Below are positions 42,001-50,964 of a stretch of DNA of 64,000 bases, piece after piece. Made by a program: the position numbers. Position 1 is the first letter of the stretch. Every line of letters begins with the position of its first letter. The stretch is taken from NCBI GenBank assembly GCA_965248355.1, contig OZ252098.1, positions 384,001-448,000 on the forward strand, given 5' to 3'. The stretch is from Candidatus Latescibacterota bacterium. Its GTDB lineage: Bacteria > Latescibacterota > UBA2968 > UBA8231.

Positions 42001-45000
42001 GATGAAGACCCCCTCCTTCTCCTTGAGGACGAGGGCCGCCTTGCGGCGTTGCAGGCTGGTGGTCAGCTCCCGTGTCCGGTGGTTCGAGTCGGGCAGCACC
42101 TGGTCGTTGAACCACACCATGGTCAGGGTGAGCACCCCCGCGGCGGCCAGAACGGGGGCGAGGAGATGTCCGAAGCTGACCCCGGCGGCCTTCCACGCCA
42201 GGATCTCGTTGTCCGCGGCGAGCCGGCCGAAGACCATGAGCACGGAGATCAGCACCGCCATGGGGACCGCCAGGGCGACGATCCAGGCGAGGTTGCGGAG
42301 GAACAGTTCCACGGCGACGGCGCCGCCGATGCCCTTGCTCAGCAGCTGATCCAGCAGTTGCAGCATGACGTCGATCTCGAGGACGAACACGATCAGTCCG
42401 AAACCGAGAAGGAAGGCGTCCAGGTGCTGGCGCAGAAGATAGCGGGAGAGGGAAACCAAGGAGCCGTATGATGGGTCTGTCTAGGAACCCGCCGGTGCCC
42501 GTCGGGGCCGCGGCCTGCGAAGAGGCTCCTGCGAAGGGCGCAGGGCCGGCGCAGGAGGGCGGTCCCGGGTGCCGTGGGTATCGTCGATGTGTGCGCGGGT
42601 TGCCACGCGGCTCATCCAATATACCACCGAGCCGCCGGCCGCATGGGAGGAACGGTTTTCGCTTGCCCCGACGGGCGGCGCCCCCCACCGGCAAGGCGGC
42701 CTCTCCGATTGCTGGATCACGCTCCCTCCCGTAGGTTCACAGAGGGTCATGGCGTCATTCGCCGTCCCATCCCCCGAGTCCCAGATCAGCCTCCTGGCCG
42801 GCCCACCGGATGCCTCGACGGCCGTCGACGCTCCGGGGTACGTCTCCGCGCCCTGCCGGGGACCCGCCAGCCGGGCGATCCACCCGCCGAAGGCCGGCGG
42901 CGCCCGCCGCCGGCTCTAGGGGAACCGACGCCCGCCCGTGCCCGCAAGCGACGCTACCATCCCGAACCTGGTCCCGGGTGGCCCCCCGAGGATCGGGCTC
43001 TCCCTGGGCGGCGCTCTCCTCGGCCTTCTCGCTCTCGCCCCCCTGCCCGCCTGGTCCGGCCTCGGCCTCGAGCCGCCTCCGTACGGCCCCGTCCAGGGGA
43101 TCTTCCGCGATCCGGCGCCCTACGGCGACTTCCGGCGGGGGGCGCCCATGCTGCGCCTGAGGCCCCCGGCGGAGCCGCTGGTGGAATCGAGCACCGGCTT
43201 CACCAGCAAGCAGGTGACCGTCGACTCCTCCGGGGCCCACTGGCAGCCCCGGACGGCCGGATTCGACCACGGCGTCCCGATCACGCTTTCCCTGGGCCGT
43301 TACCTCGAGCTGGGGAACCGCCACCTCTACCGGACGAAGTGGCGGCAGAGGGTCCGCGACGACATGCGCCGGGAGACCCGCATGGGGGAAGGGCGGCGGG
43401 GACGCCTGGAGTGGCGGGTGCCGATCCCGGCGCCGCCGGTCGTGAGGCGGTTCATAGGAGATGAGGGCTCGCTGCGCATCAACGGCTCTCACACCGCCTC
43501 GATCGGCGGCAAGAGCAGCTGGACGGCGGACGACGTGCAGACCCTGGCGGGCGGATCGTCGAAGTTCCCGGCCCTGAGCATGGACCAGGAATCGGACTTC
43601 TCCGTGGAAGGCAAGGTGGGGGAGGCGATCAACATCCGCATCAACCAGGACACCAAGGGCCTGGCCAGTTCCTTCGGCCAGAACCTGCAGGATCAACTCA
43701 ACCAGATCAAGCTCGACTACCAGGGCGACGAGGACGACATCTTCCAGGAGGTGCAGGCGGGCAACACCACCTTGTCGCTGCCGAACACGCGGTTCGTCGG
43801 CTTCAACCAGCAGCACAAGGGCCTGTTCGGAATCCGGGCCAAGGGGAGCCTCGGGCCCCTGCGCTTCACCACCATCGCCAGCCACGAGAAGAGCGAGTCC
43901 AACCGCCAGAGCTTTCGCGGCGGCGCCCAGGTCGACACCACGGAGATCCGCGACTACGAGTACGTGCGCAACCAGTTCTTCTATCTCGACGCGGTCTACA
44001 AGGAGGGCCTGCAGGACTACGCCGAGGTCTCCACCTCCGACTTCCAACCCGAGGACCCGGTGGACGAGCGCACCCTGCAGGTCTACGTGAACGACTTCAA
44101 CGTCAACAACGACGCCGTGCAGCTGGCGCGGCCCGGCCGCGCCCAGACCGACCTGGCCGACGCCGGCAACGACTCGACGGGCCACCGCGAGGTCGGCACC
44201 TGGCACCGCCTCGACCCGGACGACGACTACATCCTGGACGGCGTCCTGGGCTCCATCACCTTGCGCTCACCGGTGCAGGAGCGTCACGCTCTCGCCGTGA
44301 CCTACCGCACCCTCGGGGGCCGCGAGGTGGGCACCGCCGGCGCCGACCGCGACTCCGTGCAGCTCAAGCTCATAAAGGCCCGCGACGCCCGGCCCGGTTT
44401 TCCCACGTGGGACCTGGAGTGGAAGAACGTGTACCGCATCGTGCGAGGGTTCGCCCGGGGGCGGCAGTTCGACCGCCAGCGGATCCGCGTGGAGATCCTG
44501 CGCGAGGTGCCGGGACGGGAACCGGAGACCACCCAGGGCGGGCGCTCCTTCCTGCGGCTCATGGGGCTCGACACCCACGGGCAGGACGCGGGCACCCCGC
44601 CGGACCAGATCGTCGACGCCGACTACGACGGCCTCCGCGAAGACCTGGGGGTGCTGATCTTTCCCGACCAGCGCCCCTTCGATCCCCAGCTCTCGAGGTA
44701 CGACCTGGAGACGAAGGTCCCGGAGATCTACGACACCGAGCAGCACCGCGACCACGTCGAGGCGAGCCGCTACATCATCCAGGTGATCAACAGCTCCTCG
44801 GAGCAGCGCATCAACCTGACCCAGGGCCGGCTGACGACGATCGACGTGGAGTCCGTCCAGGTCCGCCTCGACGGCCGCCAGTTGAAGCCGAACGTGGACT
44901 ACAGCGTGACCTACACCGGGGAGGTGCAGTTCCTCGGCGCCGCGGCCGACCAGGTCGCCGATCCCGCCGCCGACCTGGAGATCACCTTCGAGAGCCAGGA

Positions 45001-48000: not shown

Positions 48001-50964
48001 CACCCGGGTCAACGTGCGTCTGCCGGACCTGCTCAAGGCCGTCGGCGCCCAAGGACGGAAGGGGCGCCCCAGGGGCGGACCCGCCCGCCGCGGGTCGGCG
48101 GAGAACCAGGAAGAGAAGGAGAAGGAGAAGGAGAAGGAGCCGGGGCAGCCGTTCTTCCTGCGCCGGTTCCTGCACTTCTCGGCCGGGTACGTCGAGCCCT
48201 TCAGCTACACCTGGCGGCGCAAAACCGACGCCCGGAACTACAACCTGATCGAGCGTCCGCCCCTGCCCTACCAGCTCGGCTTCGGGGACAGTCTGCAGGT
48301 CGAGCAGCGCAGCGCCGGACTGACCCGGCGGGATACCTGGAGCCGCTCCGCGAACACCGACCTGAGCTCCGGGCTGCGGCTGCCCCTCGGCTTCAGCCTC
48401 AAGCCGACCTACAAGGAGCAGGTGTCGTGGCGTTCGGGCAGCACCCAGAACCGGCTTCGGGTCGAGCGCTCGCTGACCTATCCGGGCATCACCGTGGCCT
48501 GGTCGAGGGCGGACCGGGTCCCGGTGCTGCGGCGCTACCTCAACAGCGCCCAGGTGAACCTGCGCATGCAGTCGACCCGCTCCCAGCAAGCCGAAGGCAG
48601 CCTGCGGCCGGCGAACCTGATCGAGGAGAGCACGAAGCAGGAGTGGACGGCCTCGTGGACGGGACAGTGGCGGATCGGCCCGACCACCCGGCTGGAGATG
48701 CGCCGGACCCGGGACGAGTCCGTCAACTACGAGCTGGTCGACCTCTCCAGCGGCGAGGTCTCCCTCGAGCAGCGGCCGCCGCTGCGCGGCAAGGGGCTGA
48801 ACGAGCGGAGCTCCGCGAGTCTCGAGACCCGCTACAAGCTGCGGCCTCGCAAGCTGCCCCTCATCGGCCGGCTGAAGAGCAACCTGGACCTCAAGCTCTC
48901 CCTCACCCTGGAGAACCGGTCCCGGGAGAACGCCACGGGCGAGCAGGAACTGGTGCTCTTCGACTCCAGCGGGCGCTGGGAGGCCCGCCTCGACGGCAGC
49001 TACAACTTCAGCGACAGCTTCCGGGGCAGCGGCGTGATCCGCCTCGAGAACCGCACCCCCCAAAATGGCCGCACGCGCAAGGTTCGCGAGGTGCGGTTCG
49101 GGGGGACCCTGTTCTTCAAGTAGCCGCCGCCGGGAGGGGGACTATCTTGATACACCTGAATCGCCAGGAGCAGGCGGCCGTGTTGTTCCTCAGCGGCGCC
49201 CTGCTGGTCGGGTCGGCGGTGGCCGTCGTCGATCACTACCGCCCCGACCGGCTCGAGAACTTCCACGTCGTCCGGGAGGCCGTCGAGGTGCCGCCTCCGG
49301 CGCCCGAGGCGATCGTCCACCTCCCTCCGAGAATCGTCTCCATCAACCACGCCACGCCAGCCGAGTTGGAGAGCCTGCCCCACATCGGGCCGAAGACGGC
49401 GGCGGCCATCATCGGCCACCGCGAGGCGAAGGGCCCCTTCGCCTCCGTGGACGACCTGACCGCCGTCAAGGGGATCGGACCGCGCACCGTGGAGCGGCTG
49501 CGCCCCCTGGTCACGGCGGACTGAGCGGATCTCGTGCCAGGCTGGCGCGCTACGACCCACACCGGGATCCACATCGGCGCCCATGCCGTGTACGCCGTCG
49601 GGCTCACCCGCCGGCGGGGCCGGCTGTCGCTCACCCACTGTGCGGCCGTCGATCTCGAGCGCGCGCCGCGTCTCCCGGAGCAGCTGGCCGACGAGGGCGG
49701 CCGACGCCCGCTCGCCGGCGCCCTGCGCGAGCTGAGGTCCGGTGGCCTGCCGCGGGGACGCCCCTATCTCGCCCTGACGGGACCGGCCGTCCTTGTCAAG
49801 CGCCGCCCGGCCCTGCCGGGGGCCGTGGCCGGGAGCCGCGACCACCTGCGCTGGGAGGCGGGCCAGCTGCTGGGCGACGACCTGAAGGACTACGTGGTCG
49901 ACTTCCTCGTGACCCGCCGCCACGGGTTCGTGGTCGCCGCCCGCCGGCAGCTTCTGGACCGGTGGCGGGCCCTCTGCGAGGAGTCCGGCGTCGGCGCTCC
50001 CGGGTTCGACATGGCCTCGCTGGCCCTGTGCAAGGCCCTGGAGGCCAGCGGCGCGGCCTCGGGCCAAGGCGACGAGCTGATCGTCCACGGCGAAGCCTGC
50101 GGAGCCCGCGCGGTGCTGCTGCGAGAAGGGGAGTACGAGGCCGAGAGGGTATGGTCCGGCGGCGGGCAAGGCGGCGACGGCCTGGCCGGCTGCCTGGCGA
50201 GGATGTGCGAGGAAGAGCTCGGGCCAGGGAAGGGGCCCGAGGCCCTGTGGCTCAGCGGACCCGAGGCGCCCGGCCACGCCAGGGTGCTGGCCGGTCTCGC
50301 CGGGAAAGTGGCCGTCCTCGATCCCTTCGGCGGTCTGAAGCCGTCGCCCGGGGCCTCCCTGGCATTGTCGCCCGGCGGACGCCCGTCGTGCGCCTTCGCC
50401 GTGGCCGCCGGACTCGCGTACCGCTCCGCCTCCGAGGACTAGAACCCTGATCTCCACTGCGGAATCCGCCGAGGAGGAACCATGAGCCGCGCCGTCTATC
50501 CGGGCAGCTTCGACCCGATCACCCGGGGTCACCTGAACATCATCGAGCGCGCGCTGGACATGTACGACGGCCTCGTCGTGCTGCTGGCCGTGAACCCCGA
50601 CAAGAGGTCGACCTTCACCGACGAGGAGAACCTGACCATGATCCGCGAGGCCACCGCCCACTGGCCCCAGGTCGAGGTGGACGCCACCGACGGCCTGCTC
50701 GTCCACTACGCGCGCGCCCACGGCATCCGCCAGGCCGTGCGCGGACTGCGGGCGGTGACCGACTTCGAGGCCGAGTTCTCCATGGCCCTGATGAACCGCA
50801 GTCTGTGGGAGGTGTTCGATACCGTCTACCTGATGACGAGCGCCGAGTACATGTACCTGCGGTCGTCCACGGTGAAGCAGGTGGCCGAGCACGGCGGCGA
50901 CGTGAGCCGCTTCGTGCCGCCGGGCGTGGTGAGGCGCCTCAAGGAGAGGTTCGGCCACCGCTAG

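What a model noticed while it worked through the whole genome (the two positions that open the first line are those of the whole stretch)
42938..49123. Type IX secretion translocon and attachment complex without a recognisable GldLMN motor/ring
The genome has the T9SS outer-membrane parts (SprA 2,061 aa, nine PorV/PorQ-like proteins, two PorU sortases plus a third C25 protein, two PorZ-like proteins) and 84 cargo proteins with a T9SS-type tail, but no detectable GldL, GldM, GldN or PorP. SprA is phylum-wide, so Latescibacterota appear to run a T9SS with a different energising module; the six ExbB/ExbD sets (one TonB only), several inside cargo modules, are candidates.
Evidence so far: TIGR04189 SprA E 1e-182, NF033707 PorU twice, NF033709 five times; PorV-like paralogue group of 9; 84 tails; SprA in 23 of 24 phylum genomes. 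GldM, GldN, GldL models: no match in G000; 0 of 5 genomes over cut-off; no Gld/PorP rows in pfam.tsv or relatives.tsv; FGE-domain proteins match GldK only far under its cut-off.
(Added by a program. Inside this text positions count along the whole contig: contig position 384,001 is position 1 of the stretch shown here. "Call 12" and the like, gene names such as g00115 and contig names such as C1 are that model's own, and its searches are not shown. The text may have been shortened before it was handed on; [...] marks where a part breaks off. The agent that wrote the report below was given it as the finding of a first reader that could run no searches.)

Follow-up and report, generated by a model that had tools for sequence, protein, structure and literature searches.

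The report
Type IX secretion lacking its motor

Summary
Confirmed, and wider than reported. Window 42938-49123 is SprA (TIGR04189, 608 bits). GldK, L, M, N are absent with positive controls: over cut-off in 12 of 13 Bacteroidia, none in 37-67 other SprA-bearing genomes (Latescibacterota, KSB1, Calditrichota, Marinisomatota, Zixibacteria, Ignavibacteria, Chlorobia). So this is no Latescibacterota speciality. On an SprA tree the Gld-bearing genomes form one nested clade: the motor looks like a late addition, against the published view that T9SS arose within the gliding machine. The cargo-module ExbBD sets cannot be the general energiser: they belong to an undescribed giant-barrel family, missing from 47 of 67 motor-less genomes, that tracks the type-B-like tails (19 of 21 genomes with either have both). 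The scan noted that module before on other DNA. The energiser of SprA stays unidentified; motor-free ratchet release is my best guess (0.4), housekeeping TonB next (SprE carries a fused TonB_C in 17 of 60). Older papers I could not see may note partial sets.

The parts
42938..49123 (+). sprA/sov, T9SS outer-membrane translocon, 2061 aa, single copy; the only T9SS gene in the window (the other parts lie elsewhere on the contig and are listed in paragraph 2 of the full report)
   Evidence: TIGR04189 608 bits; PF14349; PDB 6H3I E 7e-47; no paralogue in the genome
40073..42459 (-). lptF-lptG, divergent from sprA; context, not a T9SS part (LptF/G family beside sprA in 19 of 81 loci)
   Evidence: PF03739; neighbourhood clustering
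49120..53087 (+). downstream housekeeping genes (comEA-like HhH, 302-aa unknown, coaD, obgE, dprA); no motor-like gene

Best explanation
[quoted passage not shown] SHOWN (homology, controls): SprA pore, SprE lipoprotein, one Skp, PorV/PorQ barrels, PorU/PorZ proteins and about 105 tail-bearing cargo genes are present; GldK, GldL, GldM, GldN and the PorP/SprF family are not. INFERRED from F. johnsoniae: Sec-exported cargo folds in the periplasm, its tail binds PorV docked in the side gate of an SprA-SprE-Skp translocon; this step needs no energy. INFERRED from the tree and distribution: the Gld motor and track were added once, on the branch to Bacteroidia. GUESSED (the weak step): for type A cargo no dedicated motor exists; PorV-cargo leaves a loosely docking gate by thermal motion and is kept from returning by capture and tail processing at the PorU/PorZ/PorQ complex (a ratchet). 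Separately, in part of Latescibacterota, cargo with type-B-like tails is paired gene by gene with an undescribed ~900-aa barrel that takes the place of PorP/SprF, and ExbB-ExbD-ExbD with a TM-linker-DUF4159 coupler and a long TPR protein works on those barrels (import or movement of the surface complex), not on SprA. Odds: motor-less T9SS real 0.93; ancestral 0.8; barrels as partners of B-like cargo 0.7; ratchet release 0.4.
For: Components. Absence with controls; own profiles from 10-14 Bacteroidia proteins find no GldL/M/N/PorP in six frames (best E 1.0 or worse) or in called genes (best E 0.06), although these families are as conserved within Bacteroidia (29-52% mean identity) as SprE (29.5%), whose orthologue is found; a topology screen that recalls 11 of 11 GldL and 11 of 14 GldM finds one adjacent pair, which reads as an NfeD/band-7 pair (name recalled); none of 6 FGE-domain ORFs has the GldK xGC[F/Y] motif seen in 8 of 11 GldK. 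Breadth: PorU match in 78 of 80, over cut-off in 64; SprE N-terminus single-copy in 64 of 67 motor-less genomes, 19 of them in the profile. Tree: Gld-bearing SprA is one clade (SH-aLRT 100), sister to a Chloroherpetonaceae sequence (90-91), inside a Bacteroidota-wide clade (100). No motor-like gene conserved beside sprA (81 loci), porU (40) or sprE (32 and 40). Loading needs no energy (PMC10994853, passages). Motor-less SprA is shorter: median 2089 aa (49) against 2487 (15). Barrels: 28 of 28 lie within 4 genes of a B-like cargo, 25 of 29 such cargo within 4 genes of a barrel, type A 7 of 76, about 1 expected at random; both in 19 genomes, neither in 59, one only in 2.
Against: In F. johnsoniae removing the motor traps cargo on the same SprA-PorV architecture (PMC10994853), so free release needs a gate that differs, which I did not show; the Bacteroidia-only stretches I found in SprA are short (17-24 columns). 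The ratchet leans on PorU, yet both PorU-type proteins here have Ser for Cys and 8 genomes of families f2 and f3 lack canonical PorU altogether. A dedicated energiser encoded far from the T9SS genes would escape neighbourhood analysis. PorG, PorT, PorE, PorD and the plug were not searched. Most comparison genomes are incomplete MAGs, the tree is unrooted and a quick search, and no secretion was measured. B-like tails stay under the TIGR04131 cut-off (19-31 of 35 bits); kin share both features, so the co-occurrence is not 80 independent tests.
Confidence: 0.4

Rival explanations
1. The housekeeping TonB-ExbB-ExbD system moonlights as the energiser: TonB pulls PorV-cargo (or a plug) off SprA, directly or through SprE; GldLM later took over this job in Bacteroidia.
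For: It is the one proton motor with a periplasm-spanning arm that all these diderms would be expected to have (established knowledge); G000 has a TPR-exbB-exbD-exbD-tonB operon. SprE carries a fused TonB_C in 6 of 20 motor-less proteins by Pfam (4 over cut-off) and 0 of 9 Bacteroidia; by a local profile in 17 of 60 (4 were seeds) and 0 of 12, with five copies in G049. That is the position where P. gingivalis PorW is reported to touch the Hub (PMC10994853). The motor is needed for release in F. johnsoniae.
Against: The fusion is patchy (43 of 60 lack it); SprE is a lipoprotein, so its TonB_C has no inner-membrane anchor; the SprE C-terminus is dispensable in F. johnsoniae. tonB/exbBD is not linked to sprA, porU or sprE. 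The single TonB has about 22 TBDT-like clients.
Confidence: 0.27
2. A dedicated energiser exists but is unrecognised: an unrelated inner-membrane complex encoded away from the T9SS genes, or GldLM/KN homologues diverged beyond sequence detection.
For: Energy need is shown in Bacteroidia. GldKLMN are themselves not beside sprA in Bacteroidia, so lack of linkage proves little.
Against: Curated and own profiles, calibrated on SprE and SprA, find nothing; the sequence-free topology screen finds no GldL-GldM-like pair in G000; G000 FGE proteins lack the GldK cysteine motif; 7 motor-less genomes gave no GldK candidate at all in the first look (incomplete genomes).
Confidence: 0.2
3. One reading: the ExbB/ExbD sets inside cargo modules replace GldLM as the motor of the SprA translocon in Latescibacterota.
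For: 5 of 7 ExbB lie within 10 genes of a barrel and 8 of a DUF4159 protein, next to tail-bearing cargo (one of the five only loosely). ExbBD is a proton motor. If the barrels are carriers, pulling them could release their cargo from SprA.
Against: The barrel family is absent from 47 of 67 motor-less SprA genomes, including families f2 0/5, f3 0/3, f7 0/4, f10 0/1; only 7 of 76 type A cargo genes lie near such modules; ExbB/ExbD show no profile likeness to GldL/GldM (probability under 1%).
Confidence: 0.06
4. The genes are a relic or serve another job, and the tails are not export signals here.
For: PorU Cys-to-Ser; PorV, PorZ, PorQ and SprE under their equivalog cut-offs; tails also match FlgD_ig.
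Against: SprA over cut-off in 60 of 61 phylum genomes; tails sit at C-termini in 74 of 76 genes; porU-porV order is conserved; tail cleavage is suggested by proteomics in Fibrobacter succinogenes (PMC6851124, passages; I did not test that genome for Gld).
Confidence: 0.04

Closest known systems
T9SS of Flavobacterium johnsoniae / Porphyromonas gingivalis: Extended Translocon SprA-PorV-SprE-SkpA (PMC10994853; PDB 6H3I, 8GL8) with GldLM motor and GldKN/PorKN hub (PMC12635249)
   Same: SprA, SprE (N-terminal contact motif kept), Skp, PorV/PorQ family, PorU, PorZ, C-terminal type A tails; porU-porV gene order
   Different: No GldK, GldL, GldM, GldN or PorP/SprF; SprA about 400 aa shorter; SprE ends in TonB_C or a disordered tail instead of the Bacteroidia C-terminal domain; both PorU-type proteins have His/Ser; PorG, PorT, PorE, PorD and plug not tested
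Type B CTD cargo with dedicated PorP/SprF carriers (TIGR04131, TIGR03519; PMC9143113)
   Same: Tail motif F[T/S]PNGDGxND...AY; cargo gene directly upstream of an outer-membrane barrel gene; expanded in pairs
   Different: Tails under the family cut-off; the barrel is ~900 aa, not a ~300-aa PorP, has no family at cut-off and its nearest fold is Deinococcus SlpA (Z 13.7, rmsd 7.3, 418 aligned); no Cys tail for a GldK link; coupled to ExbBD-DUF4159-TPR genes
TolA/TonB-like force transducers with a non-TonB head beside TPR-tolQ-tolR-tolR genes (vWA transducers, PMC12204202)
   Same: TM helix, linker, globular head, next to exbB-exbD-exbD and a TPR gene; 3 of 6 couplers have a His in the TM helix
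   Different: Head is DUF4159, which that paper's main text does not mention; linked to giant barrels and T9SS cargo
Reports of T9SS parts outside Bacteroidia (Fibrobacter PMC6851124; Roseithermus PMC6539836; list of FCB phyla in PMC11285876)
   Same: Tails and presumed T9SS export in Fibrobacterota, Rhodothermia, Ignavibacteria, Chlorobia, Gemmatimonadota, Cloacimonadota
   Different: The passages I saw assume a T9SS and do not mention the missing motor; Latescibacterota, KSB1, Calditrichota, Marinisomatota and Zixibacteria are not in that list

Membership tests
T9SS (Bacteroidia type) | SprA/Sov translocon | tested here: met
   TIGR04189 608 of 200 bits; 6H3I E 7e-47
T9SS (Bacteroidia type) | PorV shuttle | tested here: met
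   g3971 NF033709 247 of 90 bits, directly after porU; equivalog NF033710 161 of 250; PorV family in 22 of 40 porU loci
T9SS (Bacteroidia type) | SprE/PorW lipoprotein | tested here: met
   g1027: lipobox, N-terminal motif, hhalign E 2.6e-57; reciprocal best hit is the SprE locus in 6 of 7 Bacteroidia with a hit; NF052312 itself under cut-off
T9SS (Bacteroidia type) | SkpA chaperone in the translocon | tested here: inconclusive
   One Skp gene; SprA N-terminal region aligns loosely; role not shown
T9SS (Bacteroidia type) | GldL/PorL and GldM/PorM motor | tested here: not met
   with Bacteroidia controls 12 of 13; own profiles and topology screen
T9SS (Bacteroidia type) | GldK/GldN (PorK/PorN) hub or track | tested here: not met
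   FGE proteins lack the GldK insertion and Cys motif
T9SS (Bacteroidia type) | PorP/SprF carrier family | tested here: not met
   TIGR03519: 0 in G000, 14 in control G101; own profile best E 1.1
T9SS (Bacteroidia type) | PorG, PorT/SprT, PorE, PorD, Plug | not tested
T9SS (Bacteroidia type) | Type A C-terminal sorting domain on cargo | tested here: met
   79 over cut-off; 74 of 76 C-terminal
T9SS (Bacteroidia type) | Export across the outer membrane, dependent on proton-motive force | not testable with these tools
   Needs a cultured strain
PorU sortase | NF033707 over cut-off | tested here: met
   g3970 557, g1549 543 of 420 bits
PorU sortase | C25 His-Cys catalytic pair (identity of the pair recalled; columns found by conservation) | tested here: not met
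   His in 43 of 43 rows, Cys in 38 of 43; g3970 and g1549 have Ser; g2749 keeps Cys844
Type B sorting domain (TIGR04131) | Score over the curated cut-off | tested here: inconclusive
   9 genome matches, best 30.4 of 35 bits; 5 of 5 tails tested match at 19-31 bits; distinct from type A (no overlap)
TonB-dependent transport (for the barrel modules) | Coupler with TonB_C; receptor with plug and 22-strand barrel | tested here: not met
   Coupler has DUF4159, no TonB_C; barrels have no Plug/TBDT sequence match
Deinococcus SlpA-type giant barrel (for the ~900-aa family) | SlpA_C barrel domain and fold | tested here: inconclusive
   PF21620 E 0.007, under cut-off, on 3 of 51 homologues; Foldseek E 4.8e-9 but TM 0.19; Z 13.7, rmsd 7.3

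The most novel reading that the evidence does not exclude
The T9SS began in the FCB ancestor as a motor-free or TonB-coupled folded-protein exporter (SprA-SprE-Skp-PorV-PorU), and the GldLM motor with its GldKN track was bolted on only in Bacteroidia. In Latescibacterota a second, independent coupling arose: type-B-like cargo rides on a new giant-barrel carrier that an ExbB-ExbD-ExbD motor drives through a DUF4159-headed arm and a 1,090-aa TPR scaffold, a convergent counterpart of SprB-SprF on the Gld track, used for energised release, uptake or even surface movement.
Probability: 0.3. Interest if true: 0.88.

Novelty: new variant of a known kind. Interest (0 to 1): 0.7.

Why it matters
The motor and hub are treated as the essential core of T9SS: release of cargo is the energy-requiring step (PMC10994853), and a 2025 paper infers that the system first evolved as part of the gliding machinery (PMC12635249). 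A translocon-shuttle-sortase set kept with cargo in at least eight motor-less lineages turns that order round and poses a clean question, how a folded protein leaves SprA without GldLM, that can be tested in cultured Rhodothermia, Ignavibacteria or Calditrichota and by swapping parts into F. johnsoniae. It also means detection schemes that demand gld genes would miss a surface-protein export route of many uncultured phyla. The giant-barrel/ExbBD/DUF4159 modules are a separate, undescribed envelope machine with a defined cargo signal.

Tried and rejected
Single-sequence fold of a barrel failed (pLDDT 28.6); the alignment-based fold worked. Complex prediction of barrel g0167 with the tail of its neighbour g0166 gave no answer. 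A weak GldL-profile hit 1.3 kb from the best FGE gene was a PspA-like coiled coil on the other strand, chance (name recalled). The SprE family model alone is swamped by TPR noise (the full-length Bacteroidia profile ranks five other TPR proteins above g1027); only the N-terminal profile and synteny settle orthology. A Parabacteroides record gave an SprA seed but no GldN. No TonB/ExbBD cluster beside sprA, porU or sprE. No motor-less-only insertion in SprA at my thresholds (some of the 50 non-Bacteroidia ORFs picked there were not SprA, corrected). TonB-dependent transporter folds ranked below SlpA for the barrel model. First tree attempt timed out. An exhaustive HMM run timed out; its finished files on called genes were read. 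Ten paper searches found no paper stating that SprA-bearing non-Bacteroidia lack GldKLMN; PMC7323717 and PMC5167729 hold none of the Gld or lineage terms asked; Kulkarni 2017 is not held. A look-up of earlier findings by SprA sequence found nothing.

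
Full report
1. The observation. Window 42938-49123 (+) is one open frame of 2061 aa. It matches TIGR04189 Sov/SprA at E 4.1e-182, 608 bits against a cut-off of 200, PF14349 and solved F. johnsoniae SprA, 6H3I, at E 7e-47. Its neighbours are lptF-lptG (divergent), a ComEA-like gene, a 302-aa unknown, coaD, obgE and dprA. The genome G000 is one contig of 5.50 Mb, 95.7% complete; I called 4333 genes with my own codon model (g numbers below are mine). TIGR04183 finds 89 tails at E<=0.01, 79 over cut-off; 76 fall in called genes, 74 within 25 codons of the stop. NF033707 passes its cut-off on g3970 and g1549, not on the long C25 protein g2749; NF033709 is at or over cut-off on 5 of 10 barrels scanned; g3971, directly behind porU g3970, is the best PorV and g1656 the best PorQ, both under their equivalog cut-offs. 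Two PorZ-like proteins score 132 and 171 of 260 bits. There are 7 ExbB and one TonB_C over cut-off. SprA is in 61 of 61 phylum genomes from 12 families, 60 over cut-off.

2. Parts outside the window (contig positions; the window is 384001-448000). SprE orthologue g1027, 1263229-1266477 (-); porU g3970 - porV g3971, 4989446-4994324 (+); porZ-like g1550 - porU g1549, 1932316-1938094 (-); long C25 g2749, 3464759-3470314 (-); second PorZ-like g1707, 2130666-2132888 (-); PorQ-like g1656, 2065331-2066251 (+); the single Skp, match at 4096010-4096441 (+); TPR-exbB-exbD-exbD-tonB g1780-g1784, 2226763-2230112 (+); an example barrel module g0423-g0438, 549973-574367 (+); 28 barrels in 13 clusters.

3. 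The absence claim, with controls. No control genome of the tool passed the GldM cut-off, so 0 of 1 and 0 of 61 prove nothing alone. I scanned GTDB with an SprA alignment, got 80 titled loci (the best 80 of 592 among the first 600 pattern hits) and searched the genomes behind 49 of them. GldM passed its cut-off in 12 of 13 Bacteroidia (the miss is a 2.2-Mb MAG) and matched in 0 of 37 others. With 30 more Latescibacterota added: GldL 12 of 13 and 0 of 67 rows, GldN 13 of 13 (12 over cut-off) and 0 of 67 rows (two rows are one genome), GldK over cut-off 12 of 13 and 0 of 67. PorP/SprF: 14 hits in a Bacteroidia control, none over cut-off in G000 and three others. I sorted genomes by record title before searching; four titled only Bacteroidota, Bacteroidetes or Bacteroidia that lack Gld fall among Ignavibacteria on the SprA tree, and 10 of the 13 controls were put on that tree and form one clade. 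In 121 genomes at least 90% complete from the phylum of an Ignavibacteria genome, 28 have GldM, about every fourth handle, which fits one class in an even draw, but the tool does not give classes. Against deep divergence: profiles built from 10-14 Bacteroidia gldKLMN/porP genes find in G000 only six ordinary FGE proteins for GldK and nothing better than E 1.0 in six frames or E 0.06 in called genes for GldL, M, N and PorP. These families are as conserved within Bacteroidia (GldK 52, GldL 40, GldN 34, GldM 29% mean identity; membrane parts 51-52%) as SprA (40%) and SprE (29.5%), whose G000 orthologues the same kind of profile finds at E 8e-115 and 1e-15 (the SprE score is partly TPR repeat). 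None of the six FGE frames has the xGC[F/Y] motif present in 8 of 11 GldK; that cysteine is required for type A export (PMC12635249, passages). A topology screen that recalls 11 of 11 GldL and 11 of 14 GldM finds one adjacent pair in G000, which reads as NfeD plus band-7 (name from recall). The motor and hub are very probably absent.

4. It is not a Latescibacterota trait. The Gld-less genomes include KSB1, Calditrichota, Marinisomatota, Zixibacteria, Krumholzibacteria, WOR-3, Ignavibacteria, a Chloroherpetonaceae and a Balneolales genome (titles). PorU matches in 78 of 80 and passes cut-off in 64. The porU loci share an operon, porU-porV-M6-like cargo-(peptidase MA/TolB/Omp85)-DUF5683, its members in 14 to 22 of 40 loci, also in G000. 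On an SprA tree of 45 rows, lineages group largely by phylum, Gld-bearing SprA is one clade (SH-aLRT 100) on a long branch, sister to the Chloroherpetonaceae row (90; 91 with the C20 model), within a clade with Ignavibacteria (100) (quick searches, unrooted, many rows with odd composition). With the root outside Bacteroidota (established taxonomy, not tested here), one gain of Gld in Bacteroidia is the simplest reading. Motor-less SprA is shorter, median 2089 aa (49) against 2487 (15).

5. A missed part: SprE. NF052312 passes cut-off in 13 of 13 Bacteroidia and 0 of 67 others, but leaves one sub-cut-off, N-terminal-half match in 30 others (some may be TPR noise). The 20 I fetched are lipoprotein-like and mostly lie upstream of pyrK (16 of 20; 37 of 40 more). 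The G000 member is g1027, upstream of pyrD. It shares the N-terminal motif (YFNTYYNA...KASIV..HP.S..VDD against Bacteroidia YHN.T..YN.YFN...K.SK.I..HS..WVDD), is the top hit of a Bacteroidia N-terminal profile (E 2e-5), and the two groups align at probability 100%, E 2.6e-57 over 597 columns. A profile of this N-terminus finds one copy matching from its start in 64 of 67 motor-less genomes (19 were in the profile) and the known SprE locus as best hit in 6 of 7 Bacteroidia with a hit. The N-terminal part is what contacts SprA in the solved complex (PMC10994853, section 8). With one Skp gene the Extended Translocon can be complete. The C-terminus differs: TonB_C in 6 of 20 motor-less proteins by Pfam (4 over cut-off; G000 at E 4e-4, under it) and 0 of 9 Bacteroidia; by a local profile 17 of 60 (4 seeds) and 0 of 12, five copies in G049. 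A second correction: at the column with Cys in 38 of 43 C25 rows, g3970, g1549 and three other Latescibacterota PorU have Ser; g2749 keeps His807/Cys844, and in eight genomes of families f2 and f3 only that long type remains.

6. What the ExbBD modules are. One set is the TPR-exbB-exbD-exbD-tonB operon, with about 22 TBDT-like genes to serve (local profile). Four sets, loosely a fifth, sit in a repeated module: tail-bearing cargo, one to three ~900-aa proteins, a ~1090-aa TM-TPR protein, a TM-linker-DUF4159 protein, exbB(-exbD-exbD) and lipoproteins. The ~900-aa family has 28 members, no family at cut-off in the four scanned and folds as a large outer-membrane barrel (pLDDT 75, pTM 0.76) whose nearest solved fold is Deinococcus SlpA, distantly (Foldseek E 4.8e-9, TM 0.19; Z 13.7, rmsd 7.3, 418 aligned). 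Twenty-nine genes end in a second tail class, F[T/S]PNGDGxND...AY, matching the type B model under its cut-off and not overlapping the type A set. All 28 barrels lie within 4 genes of such a gene, 25 of 29 such genes within 4 of a barrel, against 7 of 76 type A genes and about 1 expected at random. Across 80 genomes the barrel is in 20 and the tail in 20: both in 19, one only in G003 and G008, neither in 59; the single Zixibacteria genome with barrels also has the tail. In Bacteroidia type B cargo pairs with PorP-like carriers (PMC9143113, search listing and one passage), which G000 lacks; the barrel is the natural stand-in (inference). Because 47 of 67 motor-less SprA genomes lack the barrels (14 of 33 Latescibacterota, 33 of 34 others), these modules cannot be the general motor of SprA.

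7. How it most likely works. Shown: the parts list and the absence. From F. johnsoniae: cargo loads on PorV at the SprA side gate without energy; release needs the motor and SprE/SkpA (PMC10994853), perhaps through PorG linked to GldK (PMC12635249). Here that chain is missing, and no motor-like gene is conserved beside sprA, porU or sprE. I put 0.4 on motor-free release, made one-way by capture and tail processing; 0.27 on the housekeeping TonB system, for which the SprE-TonB_C fusions are the only pointer; 0.2 on an unrecognised dedicated energiser; 0.06 on the cargo-module ExbBD as general motor; 0.04 on a relic. None of these is shown. Against my choice: the same architecture jams without a motor in F. 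johnsoniae, and the PorU active site is altered or PorU is missing in part of the phylum.

8. What is in print. Ten searches found no paper stating that SprA-bearing lineages outside Bacteroidia lack GldKLMN. [quoted passage not shown] PMC12635249 infers that T9SS first evolved as part of the gliding machinery (passage), which the distribution here contradicts. From recall only, unseen: McBride and Zhu 2013, Veith 2013 and 2017 and Kulkarni 2017 (not held) may note that Rhodothermus and Salinibacter carry sprA and tails without gldK-N; their tables and supplements could lower the novelty. No supplements were read.

9. Verdict. Real, broader than claimed, a new variant of a known kind: it works like a T9SS and keeps its outer-membrane core, but fails the motor and hub tests of the Bacteroidia type. 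Interest 0.7: surprising against the current mechanistic and evolutionary model and directly testable, tempered by possible earlier mentions, incomplete comparison genomes and an unidentified energy source.

Noticed in passing
G000 contig 4989446-4993165 and 1932316-1936002; L193, L197, L205: Latescibacterota PorU-type proteins carry Ser in place of the conserved C25 cysteine (AASAVG, AASQLG), with the His kept: inactive scaffolds or serine transpeptidases.
   Followed up: partly
G000 contig 147499-169510, 216478-240083, 495946-512000, 549973-574367, 1574684-1592826, 1954708-1976508 and others: Undescribed ~900-aa outer-membrane barrel family (28 copies, DxDxDG-rich insert, distant SlpA-like fold) with type-B-like cargo and ExbBD-DUF4159-TPR genes; about 50 such tails in relatives G050 and G052.
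   Followed up: yes
L259 (G049), L251 (G058): SprE orthologues with five and two tandem TonB_C domains.
   Followed up: partly
G000 contig 4994660-5000500 (g3972): The M6-like cargo and the downstream peptidase-MA/TolB/Omp85 gene are fused in one 1946-aa frame, while the cargo's tail lies in another frame (about 4996800-4997366); separate genes in other loci, so probably a frameshift or assembly error.
   Followed up: partly
G000 contig 233334-234200 and 909376-910242: Two identical PorV-family genes in an exact 896-bp duplication.
   Followed up: partly
G000 contig 4773860-4780405 and 4121189-4128701: TBDT - tail-bearing cargo - PorV-family barrel triplets, like SusC/SusD pairs in which the partner is T9SS cargo with its own anchor.
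   Followed up: no
L166-L205 (porU loci of Ignavibacteria, Zixibacteria, Latescibacterota): Conserved partners of porU-porV: a peptidase-MA/TolB-propeller/Omp85 protein and DUF5683 proteins, candidates for unrecognised T9SS accessory parts.
   Followed up: partly
L063, L070, L071, L085, L089: In Ignavibacteria a PorX-like response regulator gene lies in the sprA neighbourhood (name recalled from the sequence start, not scanned).
   Followed up: no
L038, L043, L058: Records titled Ignavibacteria group with Zixibacteria on the SprA tree; titles may be wrong.
   Followed up: no
window 35401-37416 (-): Amidase_3 protein with six or more LysM repeats.
   Followed up: no
window 37927-40014 (+) and 49534-50442 (+): Three ORFs (326, 367, 302 aa) near sprA with no Pfam or NCBIfam match.
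   Followed up: no
L031 (plasmid record NZ_OY725768.1): A 388-kb Parabacteroides record filed as a plasmid carries ruvA-sprA and housekeeping genes; probably a chromosome piece.
   Followed up: no
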